Assembly (NCBI RefSeq): GCF_003790525.1 | Contig: NZ_CP033635.1 | Direction: 5' to 3' (one strand) | Length of the DNA: 64,000 nucleotides | Origin: Escherichia coli | GTDB lineage: Bacteria > Pseudomonadota > Gammaproteobacteria > Enterobacterales > Enterobacteriaceae | Shown: one piece after another, positions 863 through 63,313 of the stretch | How the letters are laid out: every line of letters starts with the position of its first letter | How positions within the stretch are numbered: the first letter of the stretch is position 1 | Program-made: the position numbers and the translations under genes | Notes under the pieces: model-generated | Told to the model about the DNA's origin: nothing | The model's database searches: none | What the model saw: the letters and a program-made list of their open reading frames with translations, nothing else

Positions 863-872
863 GGTGATATCG

Positions 873-1226: not shown

Positions 1227-1246
1227 GGGGCTTCGGCCCCTTTATT
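1227..1246 (+). terminator. Intrinsic terminator inside the structural operon (GGGGC-UUCG-GCCCC followed by TTTATT)
   Basis: GC stem with UUCG tetraloop and T-rich tail read directly; placed after the head-proximal genes, analogous in position to the T7 T-phi terminator (established knowledge). Confidence 0.55.
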
Positions 1247-1258
1247 GCAGGAGTGTAT

Positions 1259-1582
1259 ATGGAACTCGTAAACCTCAAAACCGGCACTGACAGCTACCAG
1301 GATGAGAGCGGAGAAACCAGAACTCGCGATGAATACCCGTGGGGGCTGTGCATCACTCTTAATAACGACACATTGAATAAGCTGAAGGCGCAACCTCAGG
1401 GCGTCGGAACAGAAGTGATGATAACTGCAAAGGCTGTTATTCGAGGCCTGTCTGCCAGAGAAACTGACGATGGTGTTAATCGCAGCGCCGATCTGCAGAT
1501 CACTGATATGGCGATCGCTCCTGTTTCCGGGGATGTAGAAAAATCAGCGGCTGAAACCCTGTACGGCAATGGGGGTGAGTAA
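1259..1582 (+). CDS. Hypothetical phage virion protein (107 aa)
   Basis: GCAGGAG RBS 5 nt before ATG 1259; stop overlaps the next start (TAATG). Confidence 0.55.
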   Translation: MELVNLKTGTDSYQDESGETRTRDEYPWGLCITLNNDTLNKLKAQPQGVGTEVMITAKAVIRGLSARETDDGVNRSADLQITDMAIAPVSGDVEKSAAETLYGNGGE

Positions 1583-4658: not shown

Positions 4659-5122
4659 TGATCGATGTTCGAATTATTCCCGCTACCGAAGAGCATCTTC
4701 AGATGATTTTGCCGGATGTTCGTCAGGCTGATATTGACGAACTGTATGCGGTATCGCTGATGACTACCGAAGATGCGCTGCGCGTTGGTCTGCGCACTGC
4801 GACTATGGCCTGGTCAGGGTTCGCGAACGGAGAACTGGTAACCATGTTTGGTGTATCTCCGGCGTCAATGATCGGTGGCAATGGTACACCCTGGCTGGTC
4901 GGGACCAGCCGTATTGAAAAATATCAGAAGACATTTCTGCGCCACTGCCGCCCTGTATTGCAGCAGATGCTGGCAGTTTATCCGCGCCTGGAAAACTACG
5001 TCGACGAGCGAAACTATGTTGCCAAAGCATGGCTGCACTGGCTTGGATTCAGGCTTGAAGAGGCCGCGCCTTATGGTGCTCTTGGTCTTAATTTCCACAG
5101 ATTTCACATGGAGAGAAAATAA
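4658..5122 (+). CDS. Internal virion protein (gp13-like position)
   Basis: 154 aa; gene order only. Confidence 0.45.
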   Translation: MIDVRIIPATEEHLQMILPDVRQADIDELYAVSLMTTEDALRVGLRTATMAWSGFANGELVTMFGVSPASMIGGNGTPWLVGTSRIEKYQKTFLRHCRPVLQQMLAVYPRLENYVDERNYVAKAWLHWLGFRLEEAAPYGALGLNFHRFHMERK

Positions 5123-5667
5123 TGTGCGATCCGGTTATTGCTGGTGGCGCAATGCTCGCCATGAGTGGCATTCAGGCATACACCCAGTACCAACAGGGAA
5201 AGTATGCCTCGAAGGTTGCAGAAGCGAACGCAGATATAGCCACTGCTCAGGCAAATGATGCAATAAACATAGGTAACGCTGAAGCTGAGCAACGGCGCAG
5301 AGAGACCCGACAGCGGCTTGGTACACAGGCGGCGACAATGGGGGCTACCGGCGCTGATTTATCTACAGGTAACGCGCTGGATATATTTGGCGACACTGCT
5401 CAGTTTGGCGCTCTTGATGCGCTGACGACGGTGAATAACGCGCAACGCGAGGCTTACGGTTATCAGATGCAGGCTGCTAACTATAAAGCAGAAGCCAGTT
5501 CAGCCCGTAAACAGGGGAATGTGGGAGCAGCAACAACATTGCTCACTGCGCCTCTGAAGGCATACGGTGCGTACCAGATGTTTGGTGGGACGTGGAGTCC
5601 GTTTACTCAAAGCACTCCTGCGCCAATCGGGGCAGCAGCAGGAACCAGATTACCCGGAGGATTATAA
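5122..5667 (+). CDS. Internal virion protein (gp14-like)
   Basis: 181 aa, starts MC..., Ala/Gln-rich, same size class and position as T7 gp14. Confidence 0.5.
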   Translation: MCDPVIAGGAMLAMSGIQAYTQYQQGKYASKVAEANADIATAQANDAINIGNAEAEQRRRETRQRLGTQAATMGATGADLSTGNALDIFGDTAQFGALDALTTVNNAQREAYGYQMQAANYKAEASSARKQGNVGAATTLLTAPLKAYGAYQMFGGTWSPFTQSTPAPIGAAAGTRLPGGL

Positions 5668-9979: not shown

Positions 9980-9984
9980 ATTAA

Positions 9985-12459
9985 ATGAGACAGGAATGTA
10001 TACAAGCGGTCCAGCAGGCGGCGCAGCGCACGTTAACGGCGCGAGAAATACAGAACATTGAAGACCGCATTTATCGAAATATGCGCTCCATTGCTCGTGA
10101 TGACCCGATGTCGTGGCGACAACTTTCCGAATCAGAACGGTTGTATCGTGCAGCACAATTGGCATCTGAAGAATTACAGCGAGAAGCGGCATTAAAGAAA
10201 CGTCGTGTGGCCCTCACTATAGCCGCACGTCAGAGATTGGATAAATTTATCAATAGCTATCAAGGGGCTGATGGGAAACTTGGCGCTCTTAACCGTACTA
10301 TTGCTTTTAATGCAGACGGTAAATCGAATTTCCTCTCTGTTGAATCCAGAACAAAAGCCACCCGTGATTATGCATTGAGTCAATTGCAGGAGGCATTCGA
10401 AGCAGTTGATCCTCGCTTTTTTGGTCTGTTTGAAGATGAAGCGGGCGTACGTGACCTGGTATATGAAATGCGGGGGCAAAATACTGGCAATGCTAAAGCA
10501 AGAAAAGGTGCTAAGGCGTGGAGAGAAGTTACAGAGCTGCTGCGCCGCCGGTTTAATGATGCTGGTGGGGACATTGGCTATCTCGAAAACTGGGGGATCC
10601 CTCAACATCATTCTATGGAAAAGGTTGGGGCGGTATCAAAGGATAAGTGGGTTAGCGATGTTATAGGTAAGCTGGATCGCAAATATTATACCCGAGCCGA
10701 TGGACAACTGATGAACGATGCCGAGTTGTCTGAATTTCTTGGAGAGGCTTATAACACGATCGCTACTGGTGGGCTGAATAAGCTTACTGATACCGGAATG
10801 CGAATTTCCGGCGCACGTGCTAACCGTGGTAATGCATCACGACAGATACATTTCAAAGATGCAGATTCCTATCTGCAATATCAGCAACTTTATGGCGATC
10901 GCTCTCTATGGGAAATCATGGTCGGTCACCTGGAAGGTATCAGTAAAGATATTGCGCTGGTGGAAACATATGGCCCAAACCCCGATCATGTTTTCCGCTC
11001 CCTTCTTGATCAGGTTAAGGCAGAAACGGCAACAGCTAACCCGAGTAAAACCGGTAGCGTCGAGCGTCTGGCGAACAAAACAGAGAACTTGTACAACTTT
11101 ATTTCCGGAAAAACACAGCCTGTAGCGAATCCGCACATCGCGCGATGGTCTGACAATATCCGCAACTGGCTGGTTGCCAGCAGACTCGGATCCGCGTTGC
11201 TGTCATCGTTCTCTGATCTTGGAACCATGTATCTGTCTGCGAAGGTTACCAACCTTCCAATGAACCAGTTATTTCGCAACCAGCTTGAAGCTATGGACCC
11301 AACGAACCGTACAGAACTTGCGCGGGCGCGCCGCGCTGGCCTGGCGATGGAATCTCTACTTGGCAGCGTTAACCGCTGGGCGATGGATAATATGGGGCCG
11401 TCTGTGTCTCGTTGGGCGGCAACGGCGGTAATGCGTGCCAGTGGGCTTACAGCATGGTCAGATGCGCACAAGCGCGCCTATGGCGTAACCATGATGGGAA
11501 GCCTGGGAGAAGTAGTGTCACGGACACCAGACCTTCGTAGCCTCGATGACTCTGATTTTCGTATCCTGAAAAGCAAAGGGATTACTGACACAGACTGGAG
11601 CGTATGGAAGCTGGCGCAACAGGAGGACTGGGGGAACGGTAATAATACGATGCTGACACCGGAAAGCATTATGCGTATCCCTGATTCAGCAGTTAAACAT
11701 CTTGGTGAGCCTGAACGCGTGAAATTTGAGGCAATGCGTAAACTGCTCGGTGCCGTAACTGAAGAAGTTGATATGGCTGTTATTACACCGGGCGCACGTG
11801 AACAGATGTTCGTAGGGTCTGGTCTTCAGCGTGGAACATGGAAAGGTGAATTAACGAGAAGTGTTTTCCTGTTTAAATCGTTCCCTATCTCGGTAGTTAT
11901 GCGTCACTGGCATAGAGCTATGGGGATGCCGTCTGCTGGTGGGCGTGCGGCATATATAGCAACGTTTTTAGCAAGCACAACCATGCTTGGTGCTCTTTCC
12001 ATGCAGATTACTGATCTTATTAATGGGAGAAATCCAAAAGAAATGACCGGTGACAACATGGTTAAATTCTGGATAAATGCATTTTTAAAAGGTGGTGGGG
12101 CAGGGTTGTATGGTGATTTTCTTTTCTCTGACCACACCAGGTACGGGAGCGGCGCACTAGCGTCGATGCTTGGCCCGGTAGCTGGTCTGGTTGATGACGT
12201 AGTGAAGATTGCTCAGGGCATACCGTTAAATGCTGTGGAAGGGAAGAATGAGCAGACTGGTGGTGATCTGGTTAAGCTTGGGAAAGGTTTGATGCCTGGT
12301 GCGAATCTCTGGTACTTGAAGGCGGCTCTCGATCACATGATCTTTAATCAGATGCAGGAGTATTTTTCACCAGGCTATTTGCGTAAAATGGAGCAACGTT
12401 CGAAGAAAGAGTTTAACCAGACATACTGGTGGCGACCTCAGGATGTCACTCCGCAATAA
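9985..12459 (+). CDS. Internal virion / ejection protein (gp16-like position), 824 aa
   Basis: Last large gene of the structural operon; AGAGG RBS upstream. Confidence 0.5.
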   Translation: MRQECIQAVQQAAQRTLTAREIQNIEDRIYRNMRSIARDDPMSWRQLSESERLYRAAQLASEELQREAALKKRRVALTIAARQRLDKFINSYQGADGKLGALNRTIAFNADGKSNFLSVESRTKATRDYALSQLQEAFEAVDPRFFGLFEDEAGVRDLVYEMRGQNTGNAKARKGAKAWREVTELLRRRFNDAGGDIGYLENWGIPQHHSMEKVGAVSKDKWVSDVIGKLDRKYYTRADGQLMNDAELSEFLGEAYNTIATGGLNKLTDTGMRISGARANRGNASRQIHFKDADSYLQYQQLYGDRSLWEIMVGHLEGISKDIALVETYGPNPDHVFRSLLDQVKAETATANPSKTGSVERLANKTENLYNFISGKTQPVANPHIARWSDNIRNWLVASRLGSALLSSFSDLGTMYLSAKVTNLPMNQLFRNQLEAMDPTNRTELARARRAGLAMESLLGSVNRWAMDNMGPSVSRWAATAVMRASGLTAWSDAHKRAYGVTMMGSLGEVVSRTPDLRSLDDSDFRILKSKGITDTDWSVWKLAQQEDWGNGNNTMLTPESIMRIPDSAVKHLGEPERVKFEAMRKLLGAVTEEVDMAVITPGAREQMFVGSGLQRGTWKGELTRSVFLFKSFPISVVMRHWHRAMGMPSAGGRAAYIATFLASTTMLGALSMQITDLINGRNPKEMTGDNMVKFWINAFLKGGGAGLYGDFLFSDHTRYGSGALASMLGPVAGLVDDVVKIAQGIPLNAVEGKNEQTGGDLVKLGKGLMPGANLWYLKAALDHMIFNQMQEYFSPGYLRKMEQRSKKEFNQTYWWRPQDVTPQ

Positions 12460-12468
12460 GGAACAACA

Positions 12469-12882
12469 ATGAAGGAATTATTGCTGTTATCGGTATTTTT
12501 GATATCCGCTTGCTCGACATCCTATGATGTTTATGACGGTGTTGATAAGGCATATTGCGACAAAGTTAAAATGGATTTTTCTCTTGCCAAGACGGCGAAG
12601 GATAGTTGTATTGATCACTACGTCAAGACTTATACCAAGCCAGCCTCATCGGCATCTGATATTGCTGAAGGTGCTGTGTTTGAGTGTAACAAGGTGATAT
12701 CCATCGCAGCGAGTTCTTCATACGATGCTGCTGTATGTGCAATGGCTGAAAGAAACGGCATGTCAGTGCAAAAAATTAATAGCATGATAAGCAGTAATGA
12801 CGAAGCCAAAATAAGAACTGATATCAGCTCGGTGAAAAAAGATGCCATGAACAGAGTTGTAAAATATCAGTCATCTTTATAA
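12469..12882 (+). CDS. Prophage lipoprotein (signal peptide with lipobox L-I-S-A-C), 137 aa, AT-rich gene
   Basis: N-terminus MKELLLLSVFLISAC read directly; AAGGA RBS; sits at the start of the accessory island. Confidence 0.65.
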   Translation: MKELLLLSVFLISACSTSYDVYDGVDKAYCDKVKMDFSLAKTAKDSCIDHYVKTYTKPASSASDIAEGAVFECNKVISIAASSSYDAAVCAMAERNGMSVQKINSMISSNDEAKIRTDISSVKKDAMNRVVKYQSSL

Positions 12883-12897
12883 GTCGTGACATGTCAC

Positions 12898-12922
12898 AGG
12901 CCGCTTTCGCGGCCTTGTTTTT
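12898..12922 (+). terminator. Intrinsic terminator of the structural operon / lipoprotein gene
   Basis: AGGCCGC-TTTC-GCGGCCT hairpin followed by TGTTTTT. Confidence 0.6.
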
Positions 12923-13082
12923 AACGAATGCCACCGCCACCCGGGCGGGAATCCGCAGAACGCCCACCGCAGCGGGAGCCGTCAGCAGCAGTGTCGCTGT
13001 CGTGCTGACAACGACCGGCAAAGGCCTGAGTTGAAGCTACCAGAGACAACAAAACGAACAGTGCAGCAAATGCTTTTTTCAT
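12921..13082 (-). CDS. Candidate small secreted peptide (53 aa, Sec signal MKKAFAALFVLLSLVASTQAFA, two Cys)
   Basis: Internal ATG of the 77-aa ORF; convincing signal peptide but weak RBS; possible TTGACG / TATAGA promoter just upstream. Confidence 0.3.
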   Translation of the reverse strand: MKKAFAALFVLLSLVASTQAFAGRCQHDSDTAADGSRCGGRSADSRPGGGGIR

Positions 13083-13154
13083 TGTGAAATTTCCATCTAT
13101 AAGCCACCTCAATGTGGCGTCAATGAGTGTAGCACTGACTTTTGTTTCGCCCAC

Positions 13155-13176
13155 AAAAAAGCCCGCAGCGCGGGCT
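13155..13176 (-). terminator. Intrinsic terminator of the cargo operon
   Basis: AGCCCGC-GCU-GCGGGCU hairpin followed by six U on the - strand; overlaps the stop codon at 13175. Confidence 0.6.
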
Positions 13177-13615
13177 ATTCTTCTTCATCATTAAAAAGCG
13201 GATTGTTGTTTCCATCTGATGAAAGGAAAGGTATGTGTTCTCTTGAAAATCCAACAATGACAATTTCATTATCATTTTTTGCATAATGAATGCATTCATT
13301 AGAATGCCTTCCGCCAGGGTTGAAATTTAAGTTAATGGTATAATTCTTAAATGTGTTTGGATACCATGTTGGCCCACAATGATAATGCCAATAATTCTCT
13401 TGCTCATAATTGTCTGAGCCGGGAATTTTATCATGGTTATCATCAACCCACGAGGGCTTGTTTTTTCCAACAAGCGCCCTTCCATTGGCAACATCCTCTA
13501 AAAAACTTTGTATGATTTTTATTTCATCATCAGTAAGGAAAGGTCCGTCTACAGCGAAAGGGGTGTTGCTTTCCCCATGTAGAAAACTATTAGATATTCT
13601 AATGTTAAACTTCAA
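13175..13615 (-). CDS. Hypothetical cargo protein, about 146 aa, low GC, Asn-rich, no recognised domain
   Basis: Probable TTG start at 13615 with AGGAG RBS 6 nt upstream, 20 nt after the stop of the 55-aa ORF; ORF track shows a longer frame from 13756 that overlaps the upstream gene. Confidence 0.5.
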   Translation of the reverse strand: MKFNIRISNSFLHGESNTPFAVDGPFLTDDEIKIIQSFLEDVANGRALVGKNKPSWVDDNHDKIPGSDNYEQENYWHYHCGPTWYPNTFKNYTINLNFNPGGRHSNECIHYAKNDNEIVIVGFSREHIPFLSSDGNNNPLFNDEEE

Positions 13616-13635
13616 GGAAAACTCCTGATGTGCTT

Positions 13636-13803
13636 CTATTTGGAGCGAAATGCCGCCTTGAAGTCGCTGAAAGATGTTCCTGTCTGGTAAACCATATCCT
13701 TGTCGCGCTCTTTGCTTGCGCGGCCAAGCATAACTTTTCCAATGACATCCCAGCATTGCTTGGCTTGTTCATTGTGCTGAGTACGATTTTTCAACGCTGT
13801 CAT
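13636..13803 (-). CDS. Small protein (55 aa), first gene of the cargo operon; possible regulator or antitoxin-like partner
   Basis: ATG with AGGAGG RBS 6 nt upstream, placed immediately downstream of promoter P_A; translated by hand. Confidence 0.5.
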   Translation of the reverse strand: MTALKNRTQHNEQAKQCWDVIGKVMLGRASKERDKDMVYQTGTSFSDFKAAFRSK

Positions 13804-13815
13804 ATCGCGCCTCCT

Positions 13816-13858
13816 TTACCTTTAAGGTAATAGTACGCTATTCACCCACAGTCTGCAA
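13816..13858 (-). promoter_or_regulatory. Promoter P_A (-35 TTGCAG at 13853-13858, 17-bp spacer, -10 TACTAT at 13830-13835) with operator copy A (TTACC-TTTAA-GGTAA, 13816..13830)
   Basis: Hexamers and the 15-bp palindrome read directly; the operator abuts the -10 and the RBS. Confidence 0.55.
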
Positions 13859-13867
13859 TCTGTACAG

Positions 13868-13894
13868 AATTATTTAAAGGCACATCCCTGTGCC
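13868..13894 (-). terminator. Terminator-like hairpin after the antirepressor-like gene (GGCACA-GGGA-TGTGCC then TTTAAATAATT)
   Basis: Hairpin read directly; T-rich but interrupted tail. Confidence 0.45.
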
Positions 13895-13902
13895 GCCGCC
13901 CG

Positions 13903-14589
13903 TCAGAAGAACCCAGCCTTGTCGTTGATGTACTCCGCGTGGGTCTGGATATCACGCAGGCATTTGCTCACACCAACAATGTAGCAGAACATGGTGGTCA
14001 GCTCCGCCGCCGCGCCCGATACGTCGTGCCCGTCTTCCTGTAACTGGTTCAGCAGATTCATCAGCAGTGAGTTCTCCGTCAGGCCGAGAACACCAGACGG
14101 AGAATGAATCAGGCTGCGGTAGCCGGGCTTCAGTGGGGCACTGTAGGTTTTGTTCTCTATCTTCATTGCCTGCATCACTGCTGATGCTGTGGCGTTGGCT
14201 ACCTGGTCGGCAACTATCTTTATGCGTTCTTCCTGCGGGAGCGAGTTTTTAATGTAACTTCCGGTGCGGCGGATCTGAGGAAGAACCTCACCTGTAACCC
14301 ATTTACGAAAGCGGTAGGGGATAGTGCCTGGTGTCACTGCGTCGCGGCAGCGGAGGATCAGTGTGTAGAGGCCTGACTCGTTGATAATATTGGTTTCACC
14401 TTGACGGCCTAAGTTAAATTTAGCCCTTTCATCATCATCAAGAGATTTTATTGACATAGTGGGGTTTGTCAGTTGAAGAGCTTTAATAACGTCTTTGGCA
14501 ACAAACCAAGGATTTCCATCAATAACAATGGCTCGAATGGTGGCTTCTGATTCAAAATGAAAAACAGATGGGGTTACGTTAGCAGTCAT
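13903..14589 (-). CDS. Antirepressor-like protein with N-terminal BRO-N / AntA-type domain, 228 aa
   Basis: Motifs FHFE...IR..IDG.PWFVAKDV and ESGLY.LI read in the translation (BRO-N family, from memory); start set at ATG 14589 with AAGGTGA RBS rather than ORF-track 14742, which has no RBS and a Gly/Cys-rich non-protein-like extension. Confidence 0.8.
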   Translation of the reverse strand: MTANVTPSVFHFESEATIRAIVIDGNPWFVAKDVIKALQLTNPTMSIKSLDDDERAKFNLGRQGETNIINESGLYTLILRCRDAVTPGTIPYRFRKWVTGEVLPQIRRTGSYIKNSLPQEERIKIVADQVANATASAVMQAMKIENKTYSAPLKPGYRSLIHSPSGVLGLTENSLLMNLLNQLQEDGHDVSGAAAELTTMFCYIVGVSKCLRDIQTHAEYINDKAGFF

Positions 14590-14742
14590 AGTGATCACCT
14601 TTGTAGTTAGGTTAATCACCACTACCGACGCCAATCGGTTGGTGGTGAACTGTGCAGGGTTGGCGTAACCGGCTACAAAGGACCCGGCGCACCTTTCGGT
14701 GCCCCCACACAGCCCACCATAGAATAGGTGCGCTTTACACAT

Positions 14743-14761
14743 AAAAAAACCGCTTATGCGG
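14743..14761 (-). terminator. Short intrinsic terminator or attenuator in the leader of the antirepressor-like gene (CCGC-AUAA-GCGG followed by seven U)
   Basis: Read on the - strand; stem is only 4-5 bp, so call is tentative. Confidence 0.4.
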
Positions 14762-14855
14762 CATATGTGCCTCTGTAGTAACCCGGGACGCCAATCCCGG
14801 CACTGGATTTTGCCAGTGCCCGATTACTATGGCACAAGAGGAGTGCGATGTAAAT

Positions 14856-14898
14856 TTACCGAAAAGGTAATAATAAACACTCTACTTGGTAATTGCAA
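14856..14898 (-). promoter_or_regulatory. Promoter P_B (-35 TTGCAA at 14893-14898, 17-bp spacer, -10 TATTAT at 14870-14875) with operator copy B (TTACC-GAAAA-GGTAA, 14856..14870)
   Basis: Near-consensus sigma70 hexamers with exact 17-bp spacing; palindrome overlaps the -10 and start site. Confidence 0.6.
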
Positions 14899-14901
14899 AC
14901 C

Positions 14902-15159
14902 TTATCTGGTTTGTTTTCGTAATTGTTCGGCACAATAGTCGAGATGTGTTTGCAGATCCCGCATAGACATCTGTGAGCTGGTGACGTAGTTAATCAGTGC
15001 AGTCAGTTCGGCAAGTGGGCCATCGACATTAAATCCATCCTTATCGAGATCCCGGAGTAATTTCATCAAGTGCGATCCCTCCACCAGTGACCTGACGCCT
15101 CCCGGCGTGTGAATCCTTTCGGTAAATCCGTCTTCCAGTGGATAGTGATACTGCTGCAT
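14902..15159 (-). CDS. Small protein (85 aa) paralogous to the C-terminal domain of the adjacent antirepressor-like protein; candidate SOS-controlled small antirepressor
   Basis: By-eye alignment with the last ~70 aa of the 228-aa protein shows about 40 percent identity; ATG 15159 with GGAG RBS; LexA box directly upstream. Confidence 0.6.
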   Translation of the reverse strand: MQQYHYPLEDGFTERIHTPGGVRSLVEGSHLMKLLRDLDKDGFNVDGPLAELTALINYVTSSQMSMRDLQTHLDYCAEQLRKQTR

Positions 15160-15178
15160 CTTATCTTCTCCATGCAAT

Positions 15179-15198
15179 AACTGTATATTTATACAGTA
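15179..15198. promoter_or_regulatory. LexA (SOS) box AACTGTATATTTATACAGTA
   Basis: 18 of 20 positions match the consensus TACTGTATATATATACAGTA including both CTGT and ACAG arms; located immediately upstream of the 85-aa gene. Confidence 0.65.
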
Positions 15199-15235
15199 TC
15201 AAATAATTTGTTTGCTATCCAGCACGTTTTGCAAA

Positions 15236-15250
15236 TTACCCGAAAGGTAA
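15236..15250. promoter_or_regulatory. Operator copy C (TTACC-CGAAA-GGTAA) in the divergent region between the 85-aa gene and the tailspike gene, next to a TTGCAA hexamer (15229-15234)
   Basis: Third copy of the 15-bp palindrome; promoter partner hexamers not clearly assignable. Confidence 0.45.
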
Positions 15251-15354
15251 TATCTATTCGTATTTACAGTCTTTCTATCCATATGTGGTTTTTCAGGTAA
15301 TAGAATAACCAGATATGCGGCGCAACGGGTGCTGCGACTATCTGGAGATTTAAC

Positions 15355-17544
15355 ATGACGGTCTCAACCGAAGTTGACCACAACGAATACACCGGTAACG
15401 GCGTTACGACATCATTTCCGTATACCTTCCGTATTTTCAAAAAAACCGACCTGGTTGTTCAGGTGTCTGACCTGAACGGGAACGTAACAGAATTGGTTCT
15501 GGATACCGGTTATAAGGTAACTGGAGCGGGCACTTATAGTGGCGGTGAAGTGGTTCTCCAGTCGCCGCTTGCTGCTGGCTGGCGAATTACGATAGAGCGT
15601 GTGCTTGATGTGGTGCAGGAGACTGATCTTCGCAATCAGGGAAAATTTTTCCCCGAAGTTCATGAAGATGCATTTGACTACCTGACGATGCTGATCCAGC
15701 GATGTTTTGGGTGGTTCAGACGTGCATTGATGAAACCATCTTTGCTTGCAAAATATTACGATGCAAAGCAAAACAAAATTTCTAACCTTGCAGATCCATC
15801 ATTTGAGCAGGACGCTGTAAATAATCGCTCAATGCGTAATTATGTCGATGCTGCAATCGCCGGGGTTGTTGGTGGTTTTGGTTGGTTTATACCGTCAGGA
15901 AGCGGGGCAAGACAACGAACATTTCAAAGCAAAATGAGGGATATAATTTCTCCTTGTGATTACGAAGATAATATTTTTATGATTAAGGAGTTGATATCCA
16001 AAGGCAAAAATGCCGCTGTTTTTAACTCATATTATACTTTTGTTATTACTGTTGGCGAATGGGGTGATTTCCCTACACTCAAAGATGCAATCATTGCAGC
16101 CCAGTCAATGAGACCTATGTGGGATGGTGGTAATGCTTTCTGCGAAATAAGAATTAAGACCGGGCATATTATCAACTATCAAATTGAATTCAGTTCAGGT
16201 GTTGATTTGTCTTGGATTAAAATAACATCAGAAGACTCAGTGGTTTTCTCTGACACTCGTTTGTTTACTAAAATCGTTAGAACGTATTACGAATACAAGT
16301 ATTTATTTTACATTTGCGATGCAGCAAAAAGTCCTGTATTTGCTATTCAGATCGAAGAAAATAGAGATGATAGCGATGTTTGTGCATTTATTGTAACTCA
16401 AAAAGCTGAACTTAATTTCTATCCGTATTCAGGTGCTCGAAAGTTCTACGTTGGAATTCATGGTAGTTTTGGTGCAAAAATTAGTGCATATCATACCGGA
16501 TGTGCTCCTGATGAGGAAAGTGTTGCTGCATATATGCCAGAAGGGTATTACGTATGTGATTTTTCTTATAGCAGATACTCTTCCCTGCAACTGGTAAATA
16601 ATGTCAAGGCATCAATGCCTGTAAGCAAGTTTGAACGGTGCACAGAGAGTACGGTTGCGTCAGTTAATTGTATTTATAATGTTAAAGCAGATTTTCAGGG
16701 GTCAAGTGCAAGCTATTGTTATATAGGATGGAATGTAAGAGATGGTTCAAATGTTAATATACGCGACCATAAAACTATACATTGCTCATATCGTGGATTA
16801 ACCTGCATTCATACAGCATATGTTGATGCAAGACGACATGACGTTGAAGAAAGTGATGCAGAAACAAGTGGTAAAGTCCTTGAACCAAATATTGAAAAAG
16901 GTTTTTATGGATGTGCACTTGGTGTGCGTATTGATGGTGCGGGTTGCGTTGATGTTGCTGGTAATGATATGCGCAATTGTGGAACAGCCGTTAATGCAGA
17001 CACTGGTGCTGTTATTTCAGGAAAGGCTGTAGATATCTCAGGGGCTGAGCTGGGATTTGATTGCCATGCAGGAGCATCTGTTAATTTTCCAAGGCTATGG
17101 GGTACAGATATAAAAAAATTAATGCACCTCCAAGATGGTGTAAGGTTTAACTCTAATATTTGTCATGTATTTGGTGCAAATCCCACAAAAGATATTAGAT
17201 GGATTGATGTAGAGAGATCTGAAGCTTCTTTTATGAATGCAACGCTGGATGCAGATTCAGGATTTATTGCCGACTGTGGTAGTAGGATAACCATTGAAGG
17301 AAGTAAAGTTAAAAACCAAACAATAAGAAGTTTTTTTGGATCATATGTGGCTATAAATAATACTGTTGCTGACAGAACTTATTCAGATATAGCCGATGTT
17401 CCGCAGTTGACTATTAGTGGAGGATCTTTTATTTCTGCTACAGGATATTCTAATTCTGACTCCAGCCCTCTGAGGTTGAGCACAACACGAAATACACTTG
17501 GCGTTGGAGGAGCCATATTTTCAACCAATGGGGAAGTTTCATGA
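15355..17544 (+). CDS. Tailspike / tail fiber protein, 729 aa: conserved N-terminal virion-attachment domain plus divergent C-terminal receptor-binding part
   Basis: N-terminus carries the YTGNGVTT.F.Y.F pattern typical of podovirus tail fiber or tailspike adapters (from memory); C-terminal two thirds are AT-rich and Cys-rich; GGAG RBS 7 nt upstream. Confidence 0.7.
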   Translation: MTVSTEVDHNEYTGNGVTTSFPYTFRIFKKTDLVVQVSDLNGNVTELVLDTGYKVTGAGTYSGGEVVLQSPLAAGWRITIERVLDVVQETDLRNQGKFFPEVHEDAFDYLTMLIQRCFGWFRRALMKPSLLAKYYDAKQNKISNLADPSFEQDAVNNRSMRNYVDAAIAGVVGGFGWFIPSGSGARQRTFQSKMRDIISPCDYEDNIFMIKELISKGKNAAVFNSYYTFVITVGEWGDFPTLKDAIIAAQSMRPMWDGGNAFCEIRIKTGHIINYQIEFSSGVDLSWIKITSEDSVVFSDTRLFTKIVRTYYEYKYLFYICDAAKSPVFAIQIEENRDDSDVCAFIVTQKAELNFYPYSGARKFYVGIHGSFGAKISAYHTGCAPDEESVAAYMPEGYYVCDFSYSRYSSLQLVNNVKASMPVSKFERCTESTVASVNCIYNVKADFQGSSASYCYIGWNVRDGSNVNIRDHKTIHCSYRGLTCIHTAYVDARRHDVEESDAETSGKVLEPNIEKGFYGCALGVRIDGAGCVDVAGNDMRNCGTAVNADTGAVISGKAVDISGAELGFDCHAGASVNFPRLWGTDIKKLMHLQDGVRFNSNICHVFGANPTKDIRWIDVERSEASFMNATLDADSGFIADCGSRITIEGSKVKNQTIRSFFGSYVAINNTVADRTYSDIADVPQLTISGGSFISATGYSNSDSSPLRLSTTRNTLGVGGAIFSTNGEVS

Positions 17545-17837
17545 TTAAGAGCATTGATGTCACTCCATTTCTTCACTCGCTTTGCGCTTTTGCGGCTCAG
17601 GTACTGGTTGGTATTTTTACCGGAAACTGGGCTTACGGTGCGATAGCCGGTTGTACGTTCTTCATTGCGCGTGAACACACCCAGGCAGAATATCGCTGGA
17701 TAGAAAAGTTTGGGAAAGGGAAACGTATCAACATGCCGTGGTGGGGAGGTTTTGATCCACGCGTGTGGGATGTGGGAAGTCTGTTGGATTTTGCTGTTCC
17801 TGTTGTTTTTTGTTTTTGTGTTTATTTCTCTATTTGA
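17541..17837 (+). CDS. Small membrane protein (98 aa, two hydrophobic helices)
   Basis: ATGA overlap with the tailspike stop; hydrophobic stretches in translation. Confidence 0.5.
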   Translation: MIKSIDVTPFLHSLCAFAAQVLVGIFTGNWAYGAIAGCTFFIAREHTQAEYRWIEKFGKGKRINMPWWGGFDPRVWDVGSLLDFAVPVVFCFCVYFSI

Positions 17838-18039
17838 CTGCTACCGCGCCATTAAATGGTGCGGTATTCAACCTGCTCTTCACTGTTTGTTTCTTCAGAG
17901 TCATGTAAAAGGTGAGCTTTATTCTCGGCATGAAAAACAGGGAATTGACGATGTTAAAGTAACAAAAAACCATAAATGGTTTATTATGCGTAATGCTTTA
18001 CTGTTCAGGAGGTTGTTATGCATATAAACGGTGGAAAAC

Positions 18040-18444
18040 ATGTCAGCTCAACTAACCAGTGAAACTTTAAATCAGTGGCTTAGCATGAGTTCTCTGGCGG
18101 CGGTGATAGCAGGAGTTCCTCCTGAGGTTGCTTTGGGTGCTTTGGCTGGAGCGGTAATTTTTGTTACCTCTGCAGTAGAGTACCCCATCCGTCGCCGGGT
18201 GCTCCTGTCGATGCTCAGCTTTCTTTGCGGCCTTCTCTTTTACAAACCAGCAGCATCAATTCTTATCGGCATAGCCAGCCTGATCCCTACCATCACGCAG
18301 GACTCTTTTGAAAAAGGGATTGTTTTCTCTGCAGGCGCATTCGTGTCAGCAATTGTCGCTGTGCGTATTGGTATATGGCTCTATCACCGTTCCGATAATC
18401 CACGCGAGTTAATTCCGGGGAGAAAAGACGATGGTAACGCATGA
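18040..18444 (+). CDS. Membrane protein, holin or antiholin candidate (in-frame alternative start GTG 18031)
   Basis: Several predicted transmembrane stretches; two in-frame starts three codons apart (GTG-GAA-AAC-ATG). Confidence 0.45.
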   Translation: MSAQLTSETLNQWLSMSSLAAVIAGVPPEVALGALAGAVIFVTSAVEYPIRRRVLLSMLSFLCGLLFYKPAASILIGIASLIPTITQDSFEKGIVFSAGAFVSAIVAVRIGIWLYHRSDNPRELIPGRKDDGNA

Positions 18445-18739
18445 GTTTTTTTTGCTTATCACCAATGCAGTTATTTGCACTGGCATAGCAATTCGCGTTG
18501 TCACATTCCGGCGTAACGGCTCTCAACACCGAAGGTGGGGAGGATGGCTTGCTTATTTCCTGATTGTTGCTGCGGCCAGTATTCCTGTTCGTGTCGCCTA
18601 TGCAATCTGGTTACGTACGCCAATGGCTGTGGATTTATCTGAGGTCATTATCAACGCTGTCATGCTAGCTGCGGTTATTAAAACGCGCGGTAACGTCGTT
18701 CAAATTTTCAAAGTATCGAGGTCTAAACATGGAGATTAA
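18431..18739 (+). CDS. Holin candidate (102 aa, 2-3 transmembrane helices) immediately upstream of the endolysin
   Basis: Position and hydrophobicity pattern; overlaps neighbours at both ends. Confidence 0.5.
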
Positions 18740-19358
18740 ACAATTCCAGCGAGCTGCTGGTATCAGCGAGGCACTGGCCGCACGCTGGTTCTCGCATATA
18801 ACTTCTGCGATGAAAGAGTTTGGTATCAGCAAACCAGAAGATCAGGCTATGTTTATTGCTCAGGTCGGGCATGAGTCTGGAGGCTTCACCCGGTTGCAGG
18901 AGAATTTCAACTACAGCGTCAGCGGACTGGCTAACTTTGTTCGGGCTGGGCGTCTCACTCAGGGACAGGCCAACGCATTGGGGCGACGTGCAGGCGAACC
19001 ACCATTGCCACTTGAGCGCCAGAGAGCGATTGCCAATCTGGTGTACAGCAAACGCATGGGGAACAATGCCCCTGGTGATGGCTGGAACTACCGTGGGCGC
19101 GGGCTTATCCAGGTTACCGGTTTGAATAACTATCGTGACTGTGGAAACGGTCTTAAGGTTGACCTGCTGGAGAGTCCTGAACTGCTGGCGCAGGACGAAT
19201 ACGCGGCTCGTAGCGCGGCGTGGTTCTTTGCCAGCAAAGGATGCATGAAGTATACCGGCGATATTGCACGTGTAACTCTGATTATCAATGGTGGCCGGAA
19301 CGGCATCGACGACCGGCGCGCGCGATACATCAATGCCAGTAAGGTGCTGGCGGTATGA
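18729..19358 (+). CDS. Endolysin, glycoside hydrolase family 19 (chitinase-like) type
   Basis: Motifs [18 protein letters not shown] and NYRD read in the translation, recalled as GH19-type phage lysozyme signatures; position between holin and Rz. Confidence 0.8.
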
Positions 19359-19837
19359 TCTGGGCATTCGTAAAAGCATACTGGAAACAGTTGGTTATCA
19401 TGGCGATGCTTGCTGTTCTGGTCATATCAGGAGTTGTAGCCTGGAATGCACACGGTAGTCGTCAGTACGACGCCGGGTATGCGCAGGCGGAAGAAGACCG
19501 CAAAGACGAAGAAGACAAAGTTCGTCAGTACTACGAACAGGAGAAAGTGACCAATGAACGTGAAGCGCAGCAAAGAATCGACCAGGCGCGCAATGATGCT
19601 CTTGATGCTGCCGCTCGCGCTGGCAGGTTGCAGCAACAACTCTTTGCCATCCGTGAGCAGCTCAGGCAGTATAACGCCATTGTCGGCGCTGGGACGTCAG
19701 CCGCAGACACCGGAGTTTTGCTTGCCGACGTGCTCAGCAAATCTCTCGAGAGAAACAGACAACTGGCAGAGTATGCTGACCGGGCAGCCGAAGCCGGAAG
19801 AGTCTGCGAAAAACAGTACGACACCCTGACCAGATAG
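19355..19837 (+). CDS. Rz-like i-spanin (N-terminal transmembrane helix, coiled-coil periplasmic domain)
   Basis: ATGA overlap with endolysin stop; typical Rz architecture. Confidence 0.7.
19554..19829 (+). CDS. Rz1-like o-spanin lipoprotein, fully embedded in the Rz gene in the +1 frame
   Basis: Signal peptide ending in lipobox LAGC, Pro-rich mature part, embedded arrangement as in lambda Rz/Rz1 (established knowledge). Confidence 0.65.
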   Translation: MNVKRSKESTRRAMMLLMLPLALAGCSNNSLPSVSSSGSITPLSALGRQPQTPEFCLPTCSANLSRETDNWQSMLTGQPKPEESAKNSTTP

Positions 19838-19992
19838 CATGGTATTTTTCATGGCACTGATTTCCGGTGACGGTATATAAAACGGTACGGGAAAAGTTGA
19901 GCTTTGGAAAAATGTTATCACTCAATTGGTTATGGTGTCCGTGAATAATTGAGTGGGAATGATTTTGATCCCTGCACTATGAATGAACAAAA

Positions 19993-21632: not shown

Positions 21633-21983
21633 AAAAGGTTCCTTGAAGTATGTCCCACGCTGTGGACAGTACTTACATTAAGGCACAACAGGACAAAATG
21701 GTCAATTCTTCGTTATGTAAAAAAGCGTCAGTGGATACATATTTTAATGTTATGGAAGTTAATTTAATTATTTACAATGATGATGTAATAATGATGAATT
21801 AACATGATAAACGTAATAATTCATTAATCAGGGTTATTTTGTTTGATATATATCAATTGGAACTTTCATATGACACTTAGAATCAATGCTCTCTATAGTG
21901 ATGAATAATCATCATTCGAAGTCAGGTGGGATGCCTGTCTGAATACACCTCCTTCAGGATGTGGGGGATTCTGCTGAGCATCT

Positions 21984-59304: not shown

Positions 59305-59679
<375 letters not shown>

Positions 59680-60041
59680 TTATGAGAATAAATACTCATT
59701 TAAGGGTGAAAACATTTTGCCTGCAAATGATCATCAGGAAATATAACATTATCGAAGTATTCAAATTAACAACTATTAAATAACATTAAACATTTTTAAC
59801 GTAAACATTAAGAATATTCATCTTGTTATCTGTCTGTATTTTAACCAGAATTAAATCAGTATTAGATGCCGTATGAATATCTCGAAATGTTGCTGTGTAT
59901 CACATACAAATTATCACCGCAGGACCATAGTATTTACATAAGGTTTGTCCCCCGGAGGTAGTCATCGCAGCAATCGAGTAAATTAGCTTCACCACGGTAT
60001 ATTGTTTCCGTAGAATACCCATAATTATAAGAGAGGTTGTT

Positions 60042-60101
60042 ATGATTGAACGTGAACTGGGGAACTGGAAAGACTTTATCGAAGTTATGCTTCGTAAGTA
60101 A
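60042..60101 (+). CDS. ypfM: Small protein YpfM (19 aa, MIERELGNWKDFIEVMLRK)
   Basis: Not in the ORF track because of length; ATG with GAGAGG RBS 6 nt upstream; matches recalled K-12 small protein. Confidence 0.7.
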   Translation: MIERELGNWKDFIEVMLRK

Positions 60102-60161
60102 TTCCTGAGACAAAGTACAAACAGCAAGAACCCGCTGAGCAGGTTCTTAATCGGAAAGTTG

Positions 60162-60194
60162 AAAAAGGCGACACATTAGCATGTCGCCTTTTTT
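60162..60194. terminator. Bidirectional intrinsic terminator between ypfM and acrD
   Basis: GGCGACA-N8-TGTCGCC hairpin flanked by A-run and T-run. Confidence 0.6.
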
Positions 60195-60199
60195 ATTGC

Positions 60200-63100
60200 T
60201 TATTCCGGGCGCGGCTTCAGCGGGAAGCGGCGGCGCACCAGCACAAAGAACAGCGGCACGAAGTAAATAGCCAGAATAGTGGCCGAAATCATCCCGCCCA
60301 TTACGCCAGTACCCACCGCATGCTGACCACCGGAACCGGCACCCGTGCTGGTTGCCATTGGCAATACGCCGAAGATAAATGCCAGCGAAGTCATCAGAAT
60401 CGGGCGTAAACGCTGACGGCAGGCGTGGAGCGTCGCTTCAAACAGGTCGTGGCCTTTTTGGTTCATCTCGTTAGCAAACTCGACGATCAGGATGGCATTT
60501 TTCGCCGATAAACCAATGACCGTTAACAGGCCCACCTGGAAGTAAACGTCGTTTTCCAGCCCGCGCATCCAGGTTGCCAGCAGCGCGCCGATAACCCCCA
60601 GCGGCACGACCAGCATTACCGAGAACGGCACCGACCAGCTTTCATACAACGCCGCAAGACACAGGAATACCACCAGCAAGGAAATGGCGTACAGCGCCGG
60701 AGCCTGCGCGCCGGAAAGCCGCTCCTGATACGACATCGCCGTCCACTCCAGACCAAAGCCGTTTGGCAACTGCTTCACTAACGATTCCATAATATCCATC
60801 GCCGTACCGGTACTGACCCCCGGTGCGGCTTCCCCTACAATCTCTACCGCAGAATAACCGTTATAGCGTTCCAGACGCGGCGAGCCTGTCTCCCAGCGTG
60901 AGGTCGCGAAAGCAGAGAAGGGCACCATGCCGCCATCTTTATTTCGGACATACCAGAGATTGATGTCATCTGGCAGCATGCGATACGGCGCAGCTGCCTG
61001 CACATAGACTTTCTTCACGCGACCGCGATCCATAAAGTCATTCACATAGCTCGAACCCCAGGCGGTTTGCAGTGTGTCGTTAATATCGTCGATAGCAACG
61101 CCCAGCGCCTGAGCTTTACGCTGGTCGATATCAATCTGCAACTGCGGACTGTCGTCGAGGCCGTTATGGCGCACACGGGTTAGCTCCGGGTTTTCCGCCG
61201 CCAGCGCCAGCAACTGGTTACGTGCTGCCATCAGCGCATCGTGACCCGCTCCAGCGTGGTCCTGCAACTCCATATCAAAACCCGCAGAACTACCAAGACC
61301 GCTAATTGCTGGCGGGCTGCTGGCGATAACGCGAGCTTCTTTAATCTTGTTAAACGCCTTCGTTGCACGCTCGATAATGGCAAACGAGGTGCCGGTCTTA
61401 CTGTCGCGTTCGCTCCAGTCTTTCAGGCGGATAAACATTCTCGCCACGTTTTGCCCGTTACCCCCAGGGCCAGAACCAACAGTGGCAAACACCGACATGA
61501 TGTTGTCTTTTTCATGGGTGAAGTAGTATTTCTCGATTTGCTCAACGACTTTCAGGGTCTGTTGTTGGGTTGAACCGCTGGGCAACTGTACCGAGGTAGT
61601 AAACATGCCACGGTCTTCCAGTGGCAAGAACGACGTCGGCAAACGCAGGAACAGGAACACCATGCCGCCAAGCAGCAGGACATAAATCACAATCCAGCGC
61701 AGGCTACGGTGGAGAATTTTCGCCACCCCTTTTTCGTAGCGTTCGGCGTTGCGGTTAAACATCTGGTTAAACCAGGCAAAAAAGCCTTTTTGCCCGTGAT
61801 GCTCACCTTTTTTCAGTGGCTTAAGTAGCGTGGCACACAGAGCCGGAGTGAGGATCATCGCTACCAGTACTGACAGCACCATCGCTGCAACAATGGTAAT
61901 AGAGAACTGGCGATAGATGGCACCGGTGGTGCCGCCGAAGAAGGCCATTGGTACAAATACCGCCGAAAGCACCATCGCAATCCCGACCAGTGCCCCCTGG
62001 ATCTGCCCCATCGATTTACGTGTGGCTTCGCGAGGAGTGAGTCCTTCCTCACTCATAATACGTTCGACGTTTTCCACCACCACGATGGCGTCATCCACCA
62101 GCAGACCGATCGCCAGCACCATCGCGAACATGGTTAAGGTGTTGACGCTGTAACCGAAGGCATAAAGTACGGAGAAGGTTCCCATCAACACCACCGGCAC
62201 GGCGATAGTGGGTATCAGCGTGGCGCGGAAGTTTTGCAGGAACAGATACATAACGAGGAAAACCAGAGCGATAGCTTCCAGCAGCGTTTTCACCACGTCT
62301 TCAATGGAGGCTTTAACAAACGAGGTGGTTTCATACGCCACCTTGTATTCCAGTCCGTGCGGGAAATACTGCGCCAGCTCGTCGAGACGATTGAGCACCA
62401 GCTCCGCTGTCGCCATTTCGTTCGCGCCGGAGGCCAGTTTTACCCCCAGCCCGGAGGCTGGCATACCATTGAAGCGGCTAAGATAATCGTATTTTTCCGC
62501 CCCCATTTCGATGGTGGCGACATCGCCCAGCCTTACCTCTGAGCCGTCCTGATTCACCCGCAAGGTGATATCGCGGAACTGTTCTGGTGTTTGTAGCAGT
62601 GACTGGGCGTTAATGGTGGCGTTGAGCGCCTGCTTATCGACGGAAGGCGTACCACCAAGTTGCCCAACCGCAATCTGCGCGTTCTGTGACTCAATGGCAT
62701 CAGTGACATCTTTAGCCGTCATCTGGAAACTGTTGAGTTTCGCCGGGTCCAGCCAGATACGCATGGAATATTGCGAACCATAGGCATCGATATCCCCGAC
62801 GCCATTCACGCGGCTTAACGGATCCTGAATATTACTGGCAACGTAATCGGCAATATCCTGTTTATCCATCGAACCATCGGTAGAGACGAAGGCAATGGTC
62901 AGAATATTGGTATCGCCGGTTTTACGCACCGTCACGCCCTGATTTTGCACCGCCTGCGGTAACTTTCGCATGGCTGATTGCAGCTGGTTTTGTACTTGCT
63001 GCACGGCTTCGTCCGGATCGGTGCCTGCTTTAAAACTTAAAGTGACAGATGCCTGGCCGGTGCCACTGCTCTGAGACGACATATACATGAGATTATCGAG

Positions 63101-63313
63101 GCCGGTCATATTTTGCTCGATAACCTGGGTCACGGTGTTTTCCAGCGTCTGGGCCGATGCGCCGGGATAGTTAGCGGTCACTCGCACATTCGGTGGCGCG
63201 AGATCGGGGTATTGTTCAACGGGCAATGAAAAAATCGCCAGGGTACCTGTCAGACACAACAGGATTGCCAGCACCCAGGCAAAAATGGGGCGATCAATAA
63301 AGAAATTCGCCAT
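60200..63313 (-). CDS. acrD: RND aminoglycoside / multidrug efflux pump AcrD
   Basis: 1037 aa RND transporter, [19 protein letters not shown]-terminus. Confidence 0.95.

What the first reader, a model, noticed from the sequence alone, without database searches (positions are those of the whole stretch)
60042..60101. 19-aa gene ypfM is missed by the ORF track
Seen: ATG with GAGAGG RBS encoding MIERELGNWKDFIEVMLRK in the yffB / acrD intergenic region, followed by a bidirectional terminator. Established knowledge: matches the recalled K-12 small protein YpfM. Included as a reminder that short genes elsewhere in the window, including the prophage island, could be missed the same way.
Basis: partly seen in the sequence, partly recalled or inferred. 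Interest (0 to 1): 0.2.

Follow-up and report, generated by a model that had tools for sequence, protein, structure and literature searches.

The report
Known 19-residue gene ypfM, confirmed
The short reading frame is the already catalogued E. coli gene ypfM, which makes a real 19-amino-acid protein of unknown function. It was missed only because ORF lists have a minimum length, so the finding is correct but ordinary.

Summary
Window 60042-60101 (+) reads ATG...TAA and encodes MIERELGNWKDFIEVMLRK. A GAGAGG Shine-Dalgarno lies 5 nt upstream, and the ORF sits between yffB and acrD. It is identical to K-12 MG1655 ypfM (b4606): 260 of 261 nt match across the locus, and the single difference is in the terminator loop. 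About 5,411 of 5,426 complete E. coli genomes hold the locus; every row listed that covers the ORF annotates 'protein YpfM'. It passes the NCBIfam equivalog model small_YpfM (58.9 bits, cut-off 33).

It is a real gene rather than a chance ORF. In loci anchored on yffB from 80 species, 71 carry the ORF, 70 of them at exactly 19 codons. pN/pS is about 0.12-0.15, variation concentrates at third codon positions, and the other frames are closed. Published mass spectrometry detected the intact formyl-Met peptide.

The unit is a monocistronic mRNA of about 175 nt: σ70 promoter TTCACC-17-TAGAAT, a 5' UTR of about 19 nt, the ORF, a variable 3' UTR, and a conserved A-tract/hairpin/T-tract terminator shared with convergent acrD. 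Rfam 'STnc250' is the Salmonella version of this mRNA.

Function is unknown. The peptide looks like a soluble amphipathic helix. This is already known and of low interest.

The parts
59988..60016 (+). σ70-type promoter of ypfM: -35 TTCACC (59988-59993), 17-nt spacer, -10 TAGAAT (60011-60016). The predicted transcription start is about 60023 (inferred).
   Evidence: The consensus scan found it. Shimada et al. 2014 genomic SELEX lists the same hexamers, TTCACC-17-TAGAAT, as the ypfM constitutive RpoD promoter (PMC3946193). A -10 box (TAgAAT, TATAAT or TAAAAT) sits at a near-constant distance from the ATG in most of the 71 loci.
60031..60036 (+). Shine-Dalgarno sequence GAGAGG, 5 nt upstream of the ATG.
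   Evidence: Read directly from the sequence. GAGG or GAGAGG is conserved at this position in 70 of the 71 orthologous loci; Dickeya has GGAG further upstream.
60042..60101 (+). ypfM coding sequence: 19 codons plus TAA, encoding MIERELGNWKDFIEVMLRK.
   Evidence: Translation. Identical to K-12 b4606. RefSeq names it 'protein YpfM', WP_001386977.1. NCBIfam NF033843 scores 58.9 bits against a cut-off of 33. pN/pS is 0.15 with third-position periodicity. The intact fMet peptide was detected by top-down MS (PMC12529367).
60102..60159 (+). Variable 3' UTR containing an Escherichia-specific hairpin at 60125-60149. On the minus strand this hairpin also looks terminator-like for acrD read-through.
   Evidence: Fold and the minus-strand terminator-like call. 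The length and sequence of this segment are not conserved between genera: the stop-to-terminator distance is 27-120 nt, median 63.
60160..60195 (.). Intrinsic terminator hairpin with a palindromic A5 / GGCGACA stem / T6 architecture, shared by ypfM (+) and convergent acrD (-). The acrD stop codon is at 60200-60202.
   Evidence: Terminator scan. Both strands fold strongly: z = -3.1 for the whole ypfM transcript (+ strand), and z = -5.4 for a 101-nt minus-strand segment spanning both hairpins. The architecture recurs in most genera, with 34 different stem arms that keep pairing. The only difference from K-12 lies in the loop, at 60178.
60081..60200 (+). Sub-threshold match to Rfam RF01409 'STnc250 Hfq binding RNA'. 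This is the 3' part of the ypfM mRNA (last 6 codons, 3' UTR and terminator), not a separate gene.
   Evidence: 37.1 bits against a gathering score of 42; the model begins at the codons for E-V-M-L-R-K-stop. Sittka et al. 2008 state that STnc250 is the small ypfM mRNA (PMC2515195).

Best explanation
This is the known enterobacterial small-protein gene ypfM. It is a free-standing monocistronic unit, divergent from yffB-dapE-ypfN and convergent with acrD.

A σ70 promoter (TTCACC-17-TAGAAT) starts a transcript near 60023. A strong GAGAGG Shine-Dalgarno, 5 nt from the ATG, drives translation of a 19-residue peptide. The transcript ends about 175 nt later at an A-tract/hairpin/T-tract terminator that also serves acrD from the other side.

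The functional product is the peptide, not the RNA. Selection acts on the amino-acid sequence, while the 3' UTR drifts freely.

The peptide is predicted to be soluble and uncharged overall, and to form a single amphipathic α-helix. Its conserved hydrophobic face is I2, L6, W9, F12, I13, M16 and L17. Its variable positions (4, 8, 11, 15) point the other way. The most likely mode of action, inferred and not shown, is that it docks through this face onto a larger protein and modulates it, as other bacterial small proteins do. The partner and the physiological role are unknown.
For: Shown:
- The sequence and its identity to K-12 b4606.
- The locus is present in about 5,411 of 5,426 complete E. coli genomes, and every listed row covering the ORF is annotated 'protein YpfM'.
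- NCBIfam small_YpfM equivalog: 58.9 bits against a cut-off of 33, aligned end to end.
- In loci chosen through yffB, not through ypfM, 71 of 80 species carry the ORF at the same place and orientation. Seventy have exactly 19 codons.
- Mean pairwise pN is 0.076 and pS is 0.507. Entropy by codon position is 0.21, 0.20 and 0.69. Both alternative sense frames carry stops in nearly all species.
- YpfM is more constrained than neighbouring YffB in the same genomes: pN 0.039 against 0.149.
- The promoter hexamers match the published SELEX promoter.
- The -10 box, SD and spacing are conserved.
- The terminator architecture is conserved with compensatory stem changes, while the 3' UTR varies in length and sequence.
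- Published detection of intact formyl-Met YpfM with 100% sequence coverage, plus PRM quantitation (PMC12529367).
- A stable short mRNA was seen on Northern blots in Salmonella (PMC2515195).

Inferred:
- Amphipathic helix: µH is 0.546 against 0.267 ± 0.134 for shuffles (top 3%), GRAVY is -0.43 and net charge is 0.
- The variability vector points 160° away from the hydrophobic vector.
Against: - No function, partner or phenotype is reported in any held paper. One review calls it 'ypfM of unknown function'.
- The helix and docking model rests on composition only. At 19 aa the peptide is below the structure tool's 30-aa minimum, there is no Pfam family and no PDB relative.
- The clustering of variable positions on one face is not statistically strong (p about 0.08).
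- The transcription start and transcript length are predicted, not measured here. Salmonella Northern blots gave about 220 nt, longer than the roughly 175 nt predicted for E. coli.
- The synonymous rate is lower than in yffB (0.31 against 0.59). This could hint at some RNA-level constraint, or it could be codon bias or noise from only 18 codons.
Confidence: 0.97

Rival explanations
1. The transcript is mainly, or additionally, an Hfq-binding regulatory RNA (STnc250) that base-pairs with target mRNAs. On this reading the ORF is secondary, making this a dual-function RNA.
For: There is a sub-threshold match to Rfam RF01409 'STnc250 Hfq binding RNA' at 60081-60200 (37.1 bits, E = 7.5e-6). In Salmonella the RNA was enriched 4-fold in Hfq co-immunoprecipitation, 24 against 6 reads (PMC2515195). 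The RNA ends in a strong terminator with a U-tail, the usual Hfq-binding module. The synonymous rate is somewhat low relative to yffB.
Against: The authors who named STnc250 reclassified it as a small mRNA. Its Hfq enrichment is weak next to bona fide sRNAs in the same table, which reach 20-27-fold. Outside the ORF and terminator, the RNA is not conserved in sequence or length between genera, so there is no conserved candidate seed. Conservation follows the codon pattern expected of a protein. The Rfam score is below the gathering threshold.
Confidence: 0.08
2. YpfM is a dedicated accessory or regulator of a neighbouring gene product: either the convergent RND pump AcrD (by analogy with AcrZ-AcrB) or the divergent YffB/DapE unit.
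For: The gene order acrD-ypfM-yffB is conserved. acrD and ypfM are both present next to yffB in 69 of 80 species and both absent in 7. In those 7, ypfM did not stay with yffB. ypfM and acrD share a terminator. ypfM and yffB share a 380-nt divergent control region with a reported H-NS site in E. coli and a MarA site in Salmonella.
Against: The co-occurrence is phylogenetically confounded, and ordinary synteny-block retention would produce it. There are exceptions: Dickeya has ypfM without acrD, and Erwinia endophytica has acrD without ypfM. YpfM is hydrophilic (GRAVY -0.43, no transmembrane segment), unlike AcrZ, which from my own knowledge is a membrane helix. ypfM has its own constitutive promoter and is not co-transcribed with either neighbour.
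Confidence: 0.1
3. The ORF is a chance reading frame in an intergenic region, and its annotation has simply been propagated.
For: Short ORFs are abundant here by chance. Two antisense ORFs of 59 and 75 aa overlap it.
Against: The ORF keeps its 19-codon length in 70 of 71 loci spread across many genera, with pN/pS about 0.15. The SD and promoter are conserved. The intact peptide has been detected by mass spectrometry. In contrast, the antisense frames are broken by stops in 35-40% of species.
Confidence: 0.01

Closest known systems
E. coli K-12 ypfM (b4606; YP_001165325.1; RefSeq WP_001386977.1; NCBIfam NF033843 small_YpfM)
   Same: The 60-nt CDS, promoter, SD and 3' UTR are identical. The position between acrD and yffB and the orientation are the same.
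   Different: One base in the terminator loop (window 60178 is A, K-12 has G). The host strain is not K-12: it carries a prophage next to yfgI/guaA.
Salmonella STnc250 (Rfam RF01409, 'Hfq binding RNA')
   Same: It is the orthologous transcript. The Rfam model starts at the codons for E-V-M-L-R-K-stop and ends at the same GGCGAC terminator. Its discoverers described it as the ypfM small mRNA.
   Different: The E. coli 3' UTR has a 24-nt larger insert carrying its own hairpin (60125-60149). The score therefore falls below Rfam's gathering threshold (37.1 against 42). The 'sRNA' label in Rfam is a historical misnomer for an mRNA fragment.
Other validated E. coli small proteins encoded by free-standing short mRNAs (for example MgtS/YneM, MntS, AzuC)
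   Same: All are very short ORFs with a strong SD, their own promoter and terminator, found through conservation and RBS models and then validated by tagging or MS (the Hemm et al. 2008 and 2010 work is cited from my own knowledge because those papers are not held).
   Different: Those examples have known partners or roles, or are membrane-associated. YpfM has no assigned function and is predicted to be soluble.

Membership tests
YpfM (NCBIfam NF033843 small_YpfM, equivalog) | Scores above the curated cut-off with a full-length alignment to the 19-position profile | tested here: met
   58.9 bits against a cut-off of 33, with residues 3-21 of the padded query aligned to profile positions 1-19 of 19. 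The query was padded with the two upstream in-frame codons (VV) only because the tool requires at least 20 residues.
YpfM (NCBIfam NF033843 small_YpfM, equivalog) | Sequence identity to the K-12 reference gene b4606 | tested here: met
   The 60-nt CDS is 100% identical, and 260 of 261 nt match over 59950-60210.
YpfM (NCBIfam NF033843 small_YpfM, equivalog) | Conserved genomic context: between acrD and yffB, divergent from yffB | tested here: met
   The arrangement is the same in the window, in K-12, in E. coli CFSAN061771, and in 69 of 80 species sampled through yffB.
YpfM (NCBIfam NF033843 small_YpfM, equivalog) | Actually translated into a stable peptide | not testable with these tools
   Not testable on this strain. 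For E. coli, published top-down MS found the intact fMet peptide with 100% coverage, and PRM quantified it (PMC12529367). The coding signature found here agrees.
Rfam RF01409 STnc250 (Hfq-binding sRNA) | Covariance-model score at or above the gathering threshold | tested here: not met
   37.1 bits against a gathering score of 42. The match is homologous (orthologous mRNA 3' part) but falls below threshold because of an insert.
Rfam RF01409 STnc250 (Hfq-binding sRNA) | Acts as a non-coding, Hfq-dependent base-pairing regulator | not testable with these tools
   Only indirect evidence is available. There is no conserved non-coding segment that could serve as a seed, and the original authors call it a small mRNA.
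Bidirectional intrinsic terminator | GC-rich hairpin flanked by an A-tract 5' and a T-tract 3', so that both strands read hairpin plus U-run, placed between convergent genes | tested here: met
   A5-stem-T6 at 60160-60195, and both strands fold. The hairpin lies 58 nt after the ypfM stop and 4 nt after the acrD stop. The architecture recurs across genera.
Bidirectional intrinsic terminator | Transcripts from both directions actually end there | not testable with these tools
   This needs 3'-end mapping (Term-seq or similar). The minus-strand U-run is only 5 nt, and a second minus-strand terminator-like hairpin follows at 60149-60125.

The most novel reading that the evidence does not exclude
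The most novel reading not excluded is that YpfM is a dedicated modulator of the neighbouring RND pump AcrD or of the YffB/DapE unit, or that its mRNA also works as an Hfq-dependent riboregulator. Either would give this long-orphaned, highly conserved 19-residue peptide a defined role. The evidence is only conserved linkage with acrD (69 species with both, 7 with neither), a shared terminator, a shared divergent control region, and weak Hfq association in Salmonella.
Probability: 0.12. Interest if true: 0.4.

Novelty: already known. Interest (0 to 1): 0.05.

Why it matters
It matters little as a discovery. ypfM has been in the K-12 annotation for years, is named by NCBI's pipeline in the complete E. 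coli genomes inspected, and has been seen by mass spectrometry.

Its value is methodological. It is a clean positive control showing that length-thresholded ORF lists drop real genes. It also shows that an 'sRNA' family in Rfam (STnc250) is really the tail of a small mRNA.

The biological gap is that a peptide more strongly conserved than its enzyme neighbour still has no known function.

Tried and rejected
- The primary papers on small-protein validation (Hemm et al. 2008, PMC2614699; Hemm et al. 2010, PMC2798279; EcoSal 2020, PMC7212919) are not held. Their content is cited only from memory and is not used as evidence.
- The Pfam scan and the PDB sequence search returned nothing.
- Structure prediction was not possible because 19 aa is below the 30-aa minimum.
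- I searched for NarQ upstream of yffB in the species lacking acrD and ypfM, to test for a clean block deletion. There were no hits, because the 2.5-kb flanks are too short and the neighbourhoods differ.
I therefore could not check whether ypfM travels with acrD elsewhere in those genomes.
- The two antisense ORFs (59900-60127 and 59934-60113, minus strand) were considered and rejected as chance. They are broken by stops in 35-40% of species and are unannotated.
- The overlapping +1-frame 20-aa TTG ORF (60046-60108) was rejected. That frame carries stops in all species.
- My automated A-run/T-run counter undercounts when the stem extends into the A/T tracts, and it misses hairpins with a mismatch. 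The qualitative conclusion relies on the printed sequences and on the folds.

Full report
**1. Observation**

Window 60042-60101 on the + strand reads ATG ATT GAA CGT GAA CTG GGG AAC TGG AAA GAC TTT ATC GAA GTT ATG CTT CGT AAG TAA. This translates to MIERELGNWKDFIEVMLRK*.

GAGAGG lies at 60031-60036, five bases from the ATG. The ORF sits in the 538-bp gap between yffB (59305-59661, minus strand) and acrD (60200-63313, minus strand).

The ORF list omits it only because its floor is 20 aa. A 19-codon ORF is not unusual by itself: the same 2.5 kb holds about forty ORFs of 20 aa or more. The case for a gene therefore has to come from other evidence.

**2. Identity**

K-12 MG1655 annotates ypfM (b4606, 'uncharacterized protein YpfM') as a 60-nt CDS at 2590807-2590866, between acrD and yffB.

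An alignment of window 59950-60210 to K-12 shows 260 of 261 identical positions. The single difference (window 60178 A, K-12 G) falls in the terminator loop.

A 601-nt query around the ORF is present at 80% coverage or more in 5,411 of 5,426 complete E. coli genomes. Every listed row that covers the ORF names 'ypfM: protein YpfM'. The rare exceptions include an IS1 insertion and partial deletions.

The peptide passes NCBIfam NF033843 'small_YpfM' (an equivalog model) with 58.9 bits against a cut-off of 33, aligned end to end. For that scan the query was padded with the two upstream in-frame codons, only to reach the tool's 20-residue minimum.

Pfam has no family for it and the PDB has no relative.

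**3. Is it a real gene?**

To avoid selecting on the small ORF itself, I fetched 80 loci from different species using the neighbouring protein YffB.

A permissive scan of all 10-60-aa ORFs found a YpfM-like ORF upstream of, and divergent from, yffB in 72 loci. Of these, 71 match a strict motif, and one (Lelliottia, L029) has K19N with read-through. Seventy of the 71 are exactly 19 codons. Yersinia has 20.

Twenty-one peptide variants occur. M1, E5, W9, K10, F12, I13, M16, L17, R18 and K19 are invariant.

Across 51 unique coding sequences:
- Mean entropy per codon position is 0.21, 0.20 and 0.69.
- Mean pairwise pN is 0.076 and pS is 0.507, a ratio of 0.15.
- The two other sense frames give ratios above 1 and contain stops in 51 of 51 and 50 of 51 sequences.

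In the same genomes YpfM is more constrained than YffB, with pN 0.039 against 0.149. The two antisense frames that are open in the window are closed by stops in 35-40% of species.

The literature agrees:
- Top-down proteomics detected intact YpfM with 100% coverage and N-terminal formyl-methionine. DIA and PRM also detected it, most reproducibly in low-Mn2+ minimal medium (PMC12529367).
- In Salmonella the locus gives a stable short mRNA on Northern blots (PMC2515195).

**4. Anatomy of the unit**

*Promoter.* The scan finds TTCACC-17-TAGAAT at 59988-60016. Shimada et al. list exactly these hexamers as the constitutive RpoD promoter of ypfM, with H-NS binding in the ypfM<>yffB spacer (PMC3946193). 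A -10 box (TAgAAT, TATAAT or TAAAAT) is present at a near-constant distance from the ATG in most genera, and the GAGAGG SD and its spacing are conserved. The start is predicted near 60023, giving a 5' UTR of about 19 nt. This is inferred.

*3' end.* A 14-pair hairpin at 60160-60195 (A5, GGCGACA stem, 8-nt loop, T6) is called as a terminator. It forms in the minimum-free-energy fold of both strands. The + strand transcript folds at -48 kcal/mol (z = -3.1), and a 101-nt minus-strand segment spanning both hairpins folds at -36.9 kcal/mol (z = -5.4). The acrD stop codon (60200-60202) is 4 nt away, so the element sits exactly between two convergent genes.

Across genera the A-tract/GC-stem/T-tract palindrome recurs, with 34 different stem arms that keep pairing. 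Examples are GGCGAC/GTCGCC, GGCGGC/GCCGCC and AGCGAC/GTCGCT.

The segment between the stop codon and the terminator is 27-120 nt long (median 63) and is not alignable between genera. In Escherichia it holds a second hairpin (60125-60149), which on the minus strand also looks terminator-like.

The predicted transcript is about 175 nt. Salmonella Northern blots gave about 220 nt.

**5. The Rfam hit**

Rfam RF01409, 'STnc250 Hfq binding RNA', matches 60081-60200 at 37.1 bits, below its gathering score of 42.

The model's consensus starts with the codons for E-V-M-L-R-K-stop and ends with the same terminator. It is therefore the 3' part of the ypfM mRNA. The E. coli score is reduced by a 24-nt larger insert.

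[quoted passage not shown] Its Hfq enrichment was 4-fold (24 against 6 reads), compared with 20-27-fold for classical sRNAs in the same table.

Because nothing outside the ORF and terminator is conserved, a base-pairing role is unlikely, although it is not excluded.

**6. How it probably works**

The following points are shown. ypfM is an independent, σ70-transcribed, efficiently translated small mRNA. Its peptide product exists in cells and is under strong purifying selection.

The following points are inferred. The peptide has GRAVY -0.43, four acidic and four basic residues, and a helical hydrophobic moment of 0.546. Shuffles give 0.267 ± 0.134, and 3% of them reach the observed value. Its hydrophobic residues follow an i, i+3/4 pattern (I2, L6, W9, I13, M16/L17, plus F12). 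The variable positions 4, 8, 11 and 15 point 160° away from the hydrophobic vector, although that clustering is weak (p about 0.08).

This is the pattern of a soluble amphipathic helix that buries one face on a partner. The partner is unknown. No held paper reports a function, and one describes it as 'ypfM of unknown function'.

**7. Linkage with neighbours**

acrD and ypfM are both present next to yffB in 69 of 80 species and both absent in 7.

The exceptions are:
- Dickeya, which has ypfM only.
- Erwinia endophytica, which has acrD only.
- One truncated locus that cannot be scored.

This is compatible with a functional tie to AcrD. Retention of a synteny block explains it equally well, and the counts are not phylogenetically independent.

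A MarA site was mapped in the Salmonella ypfM<>yffB spacer (PMC10268841).

**8. The 'reminder' about other short genes**

The window is collinear with ordinary E. coli chromosome from about 19,948 onward, running from yfgI to acrD. Before that it carries the late and lysis half of a podovirus-like prophage, with C4 antisense RNA and isrK matches.

In K-12's curated annotation, ypfM is the only CDS under 60 aa in the collinear 40 kb. The next smallest are yfgG at 63 aa and ypfN at 66 aa. The best-matching annotated prophage has nothing under 53 aa. Unannotated micro-ORFs cannot be excluded, but nothing specific emerged.

**9. Verdict**

The observation and the interpretation are both correct. 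The feature is an already known, well-annotated and experimentally supported gene. Interest is low. The only open question is the function of the peptide.

Noticed in passing
window 1-19947: This stretch is the late and lysis half of a podovirus-like prophage next to yfgI/guaA: major capsid, Bbp16-type cement protein, T7 gp14-family core protein, two holins, GH19 endolysin and DUF2514. It is absent from K-12 and from strain CFSAN061771, and is about 98% identical to a prophage in E. coli MS 198-1.
   Followed up: partly
window 14638-14724 (-) and 14743-14819 (-): Two Rfam matches above the gathering score lie inside the prophage: C4 antisense RNA (79.5 bits) and isrK (74.7 bits). They are adjacent on the minus strand near a BRO-N gene, the typical phage immunity/antirepressor control RNA arrangement.
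   Followed up: no
window 60081-60200 (+): The Rfam family RF01409 'STnc250 Hfq binding RNA' is really the last six codons, 3' UTR and terminator of the ypfM mRNA. E. coli falls below its gathering score because of a 24-nt larger insert.
   Followed up: yes
L003-L082 (yffB-anchored loci): acrD and ypfM are gained or lost together next to yffB: both present in 69 species and both absent in 7. The exceptions are Dickeya L081 (ypfM only) and Erwinia endophytica L082 (acrD only).
   Followed up: partly
L029 (Lelliottia nimipressuralis), minus strand, 2019-2159: The ypfM orthologue here has K19N and has lost its stop codon, so the frame reads on (…EDMLRNDLQEELQEHLI). It is the only disrupted C-terminus among 72 orthologues.
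   Followed up: no
window 60042-60098 compared with 59305-59661: Synonymous divergence of ypfM (pS 0.31) is about half that of neighbouring yffB (pS 0.59) in the same genomes. This could reflect codon bias, RNA-level constraint, or noise from only 18 codons.
   Followed up: no
window 21650-21802 (+): A 50-aa ORF (MSHAVDSTYIKAQQDKMVNS…) between yfgG and pdeF is annotated as a hypothetical protein in strain CFSAN061771 but has no counterpart in the K-12 annotation.
   Followed up: no
E. coli genomes H6, H30 and H55: A few of the 5,426 genomes have the locus disrupted. Strain NH-21 has an IS1 insertion in the ypfM-yffB region, strain 81 matches only the yffB-side 37% of the query, and Res13-Sevr-PER06-05-b-A has a split promoter region.
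   Followed up: no
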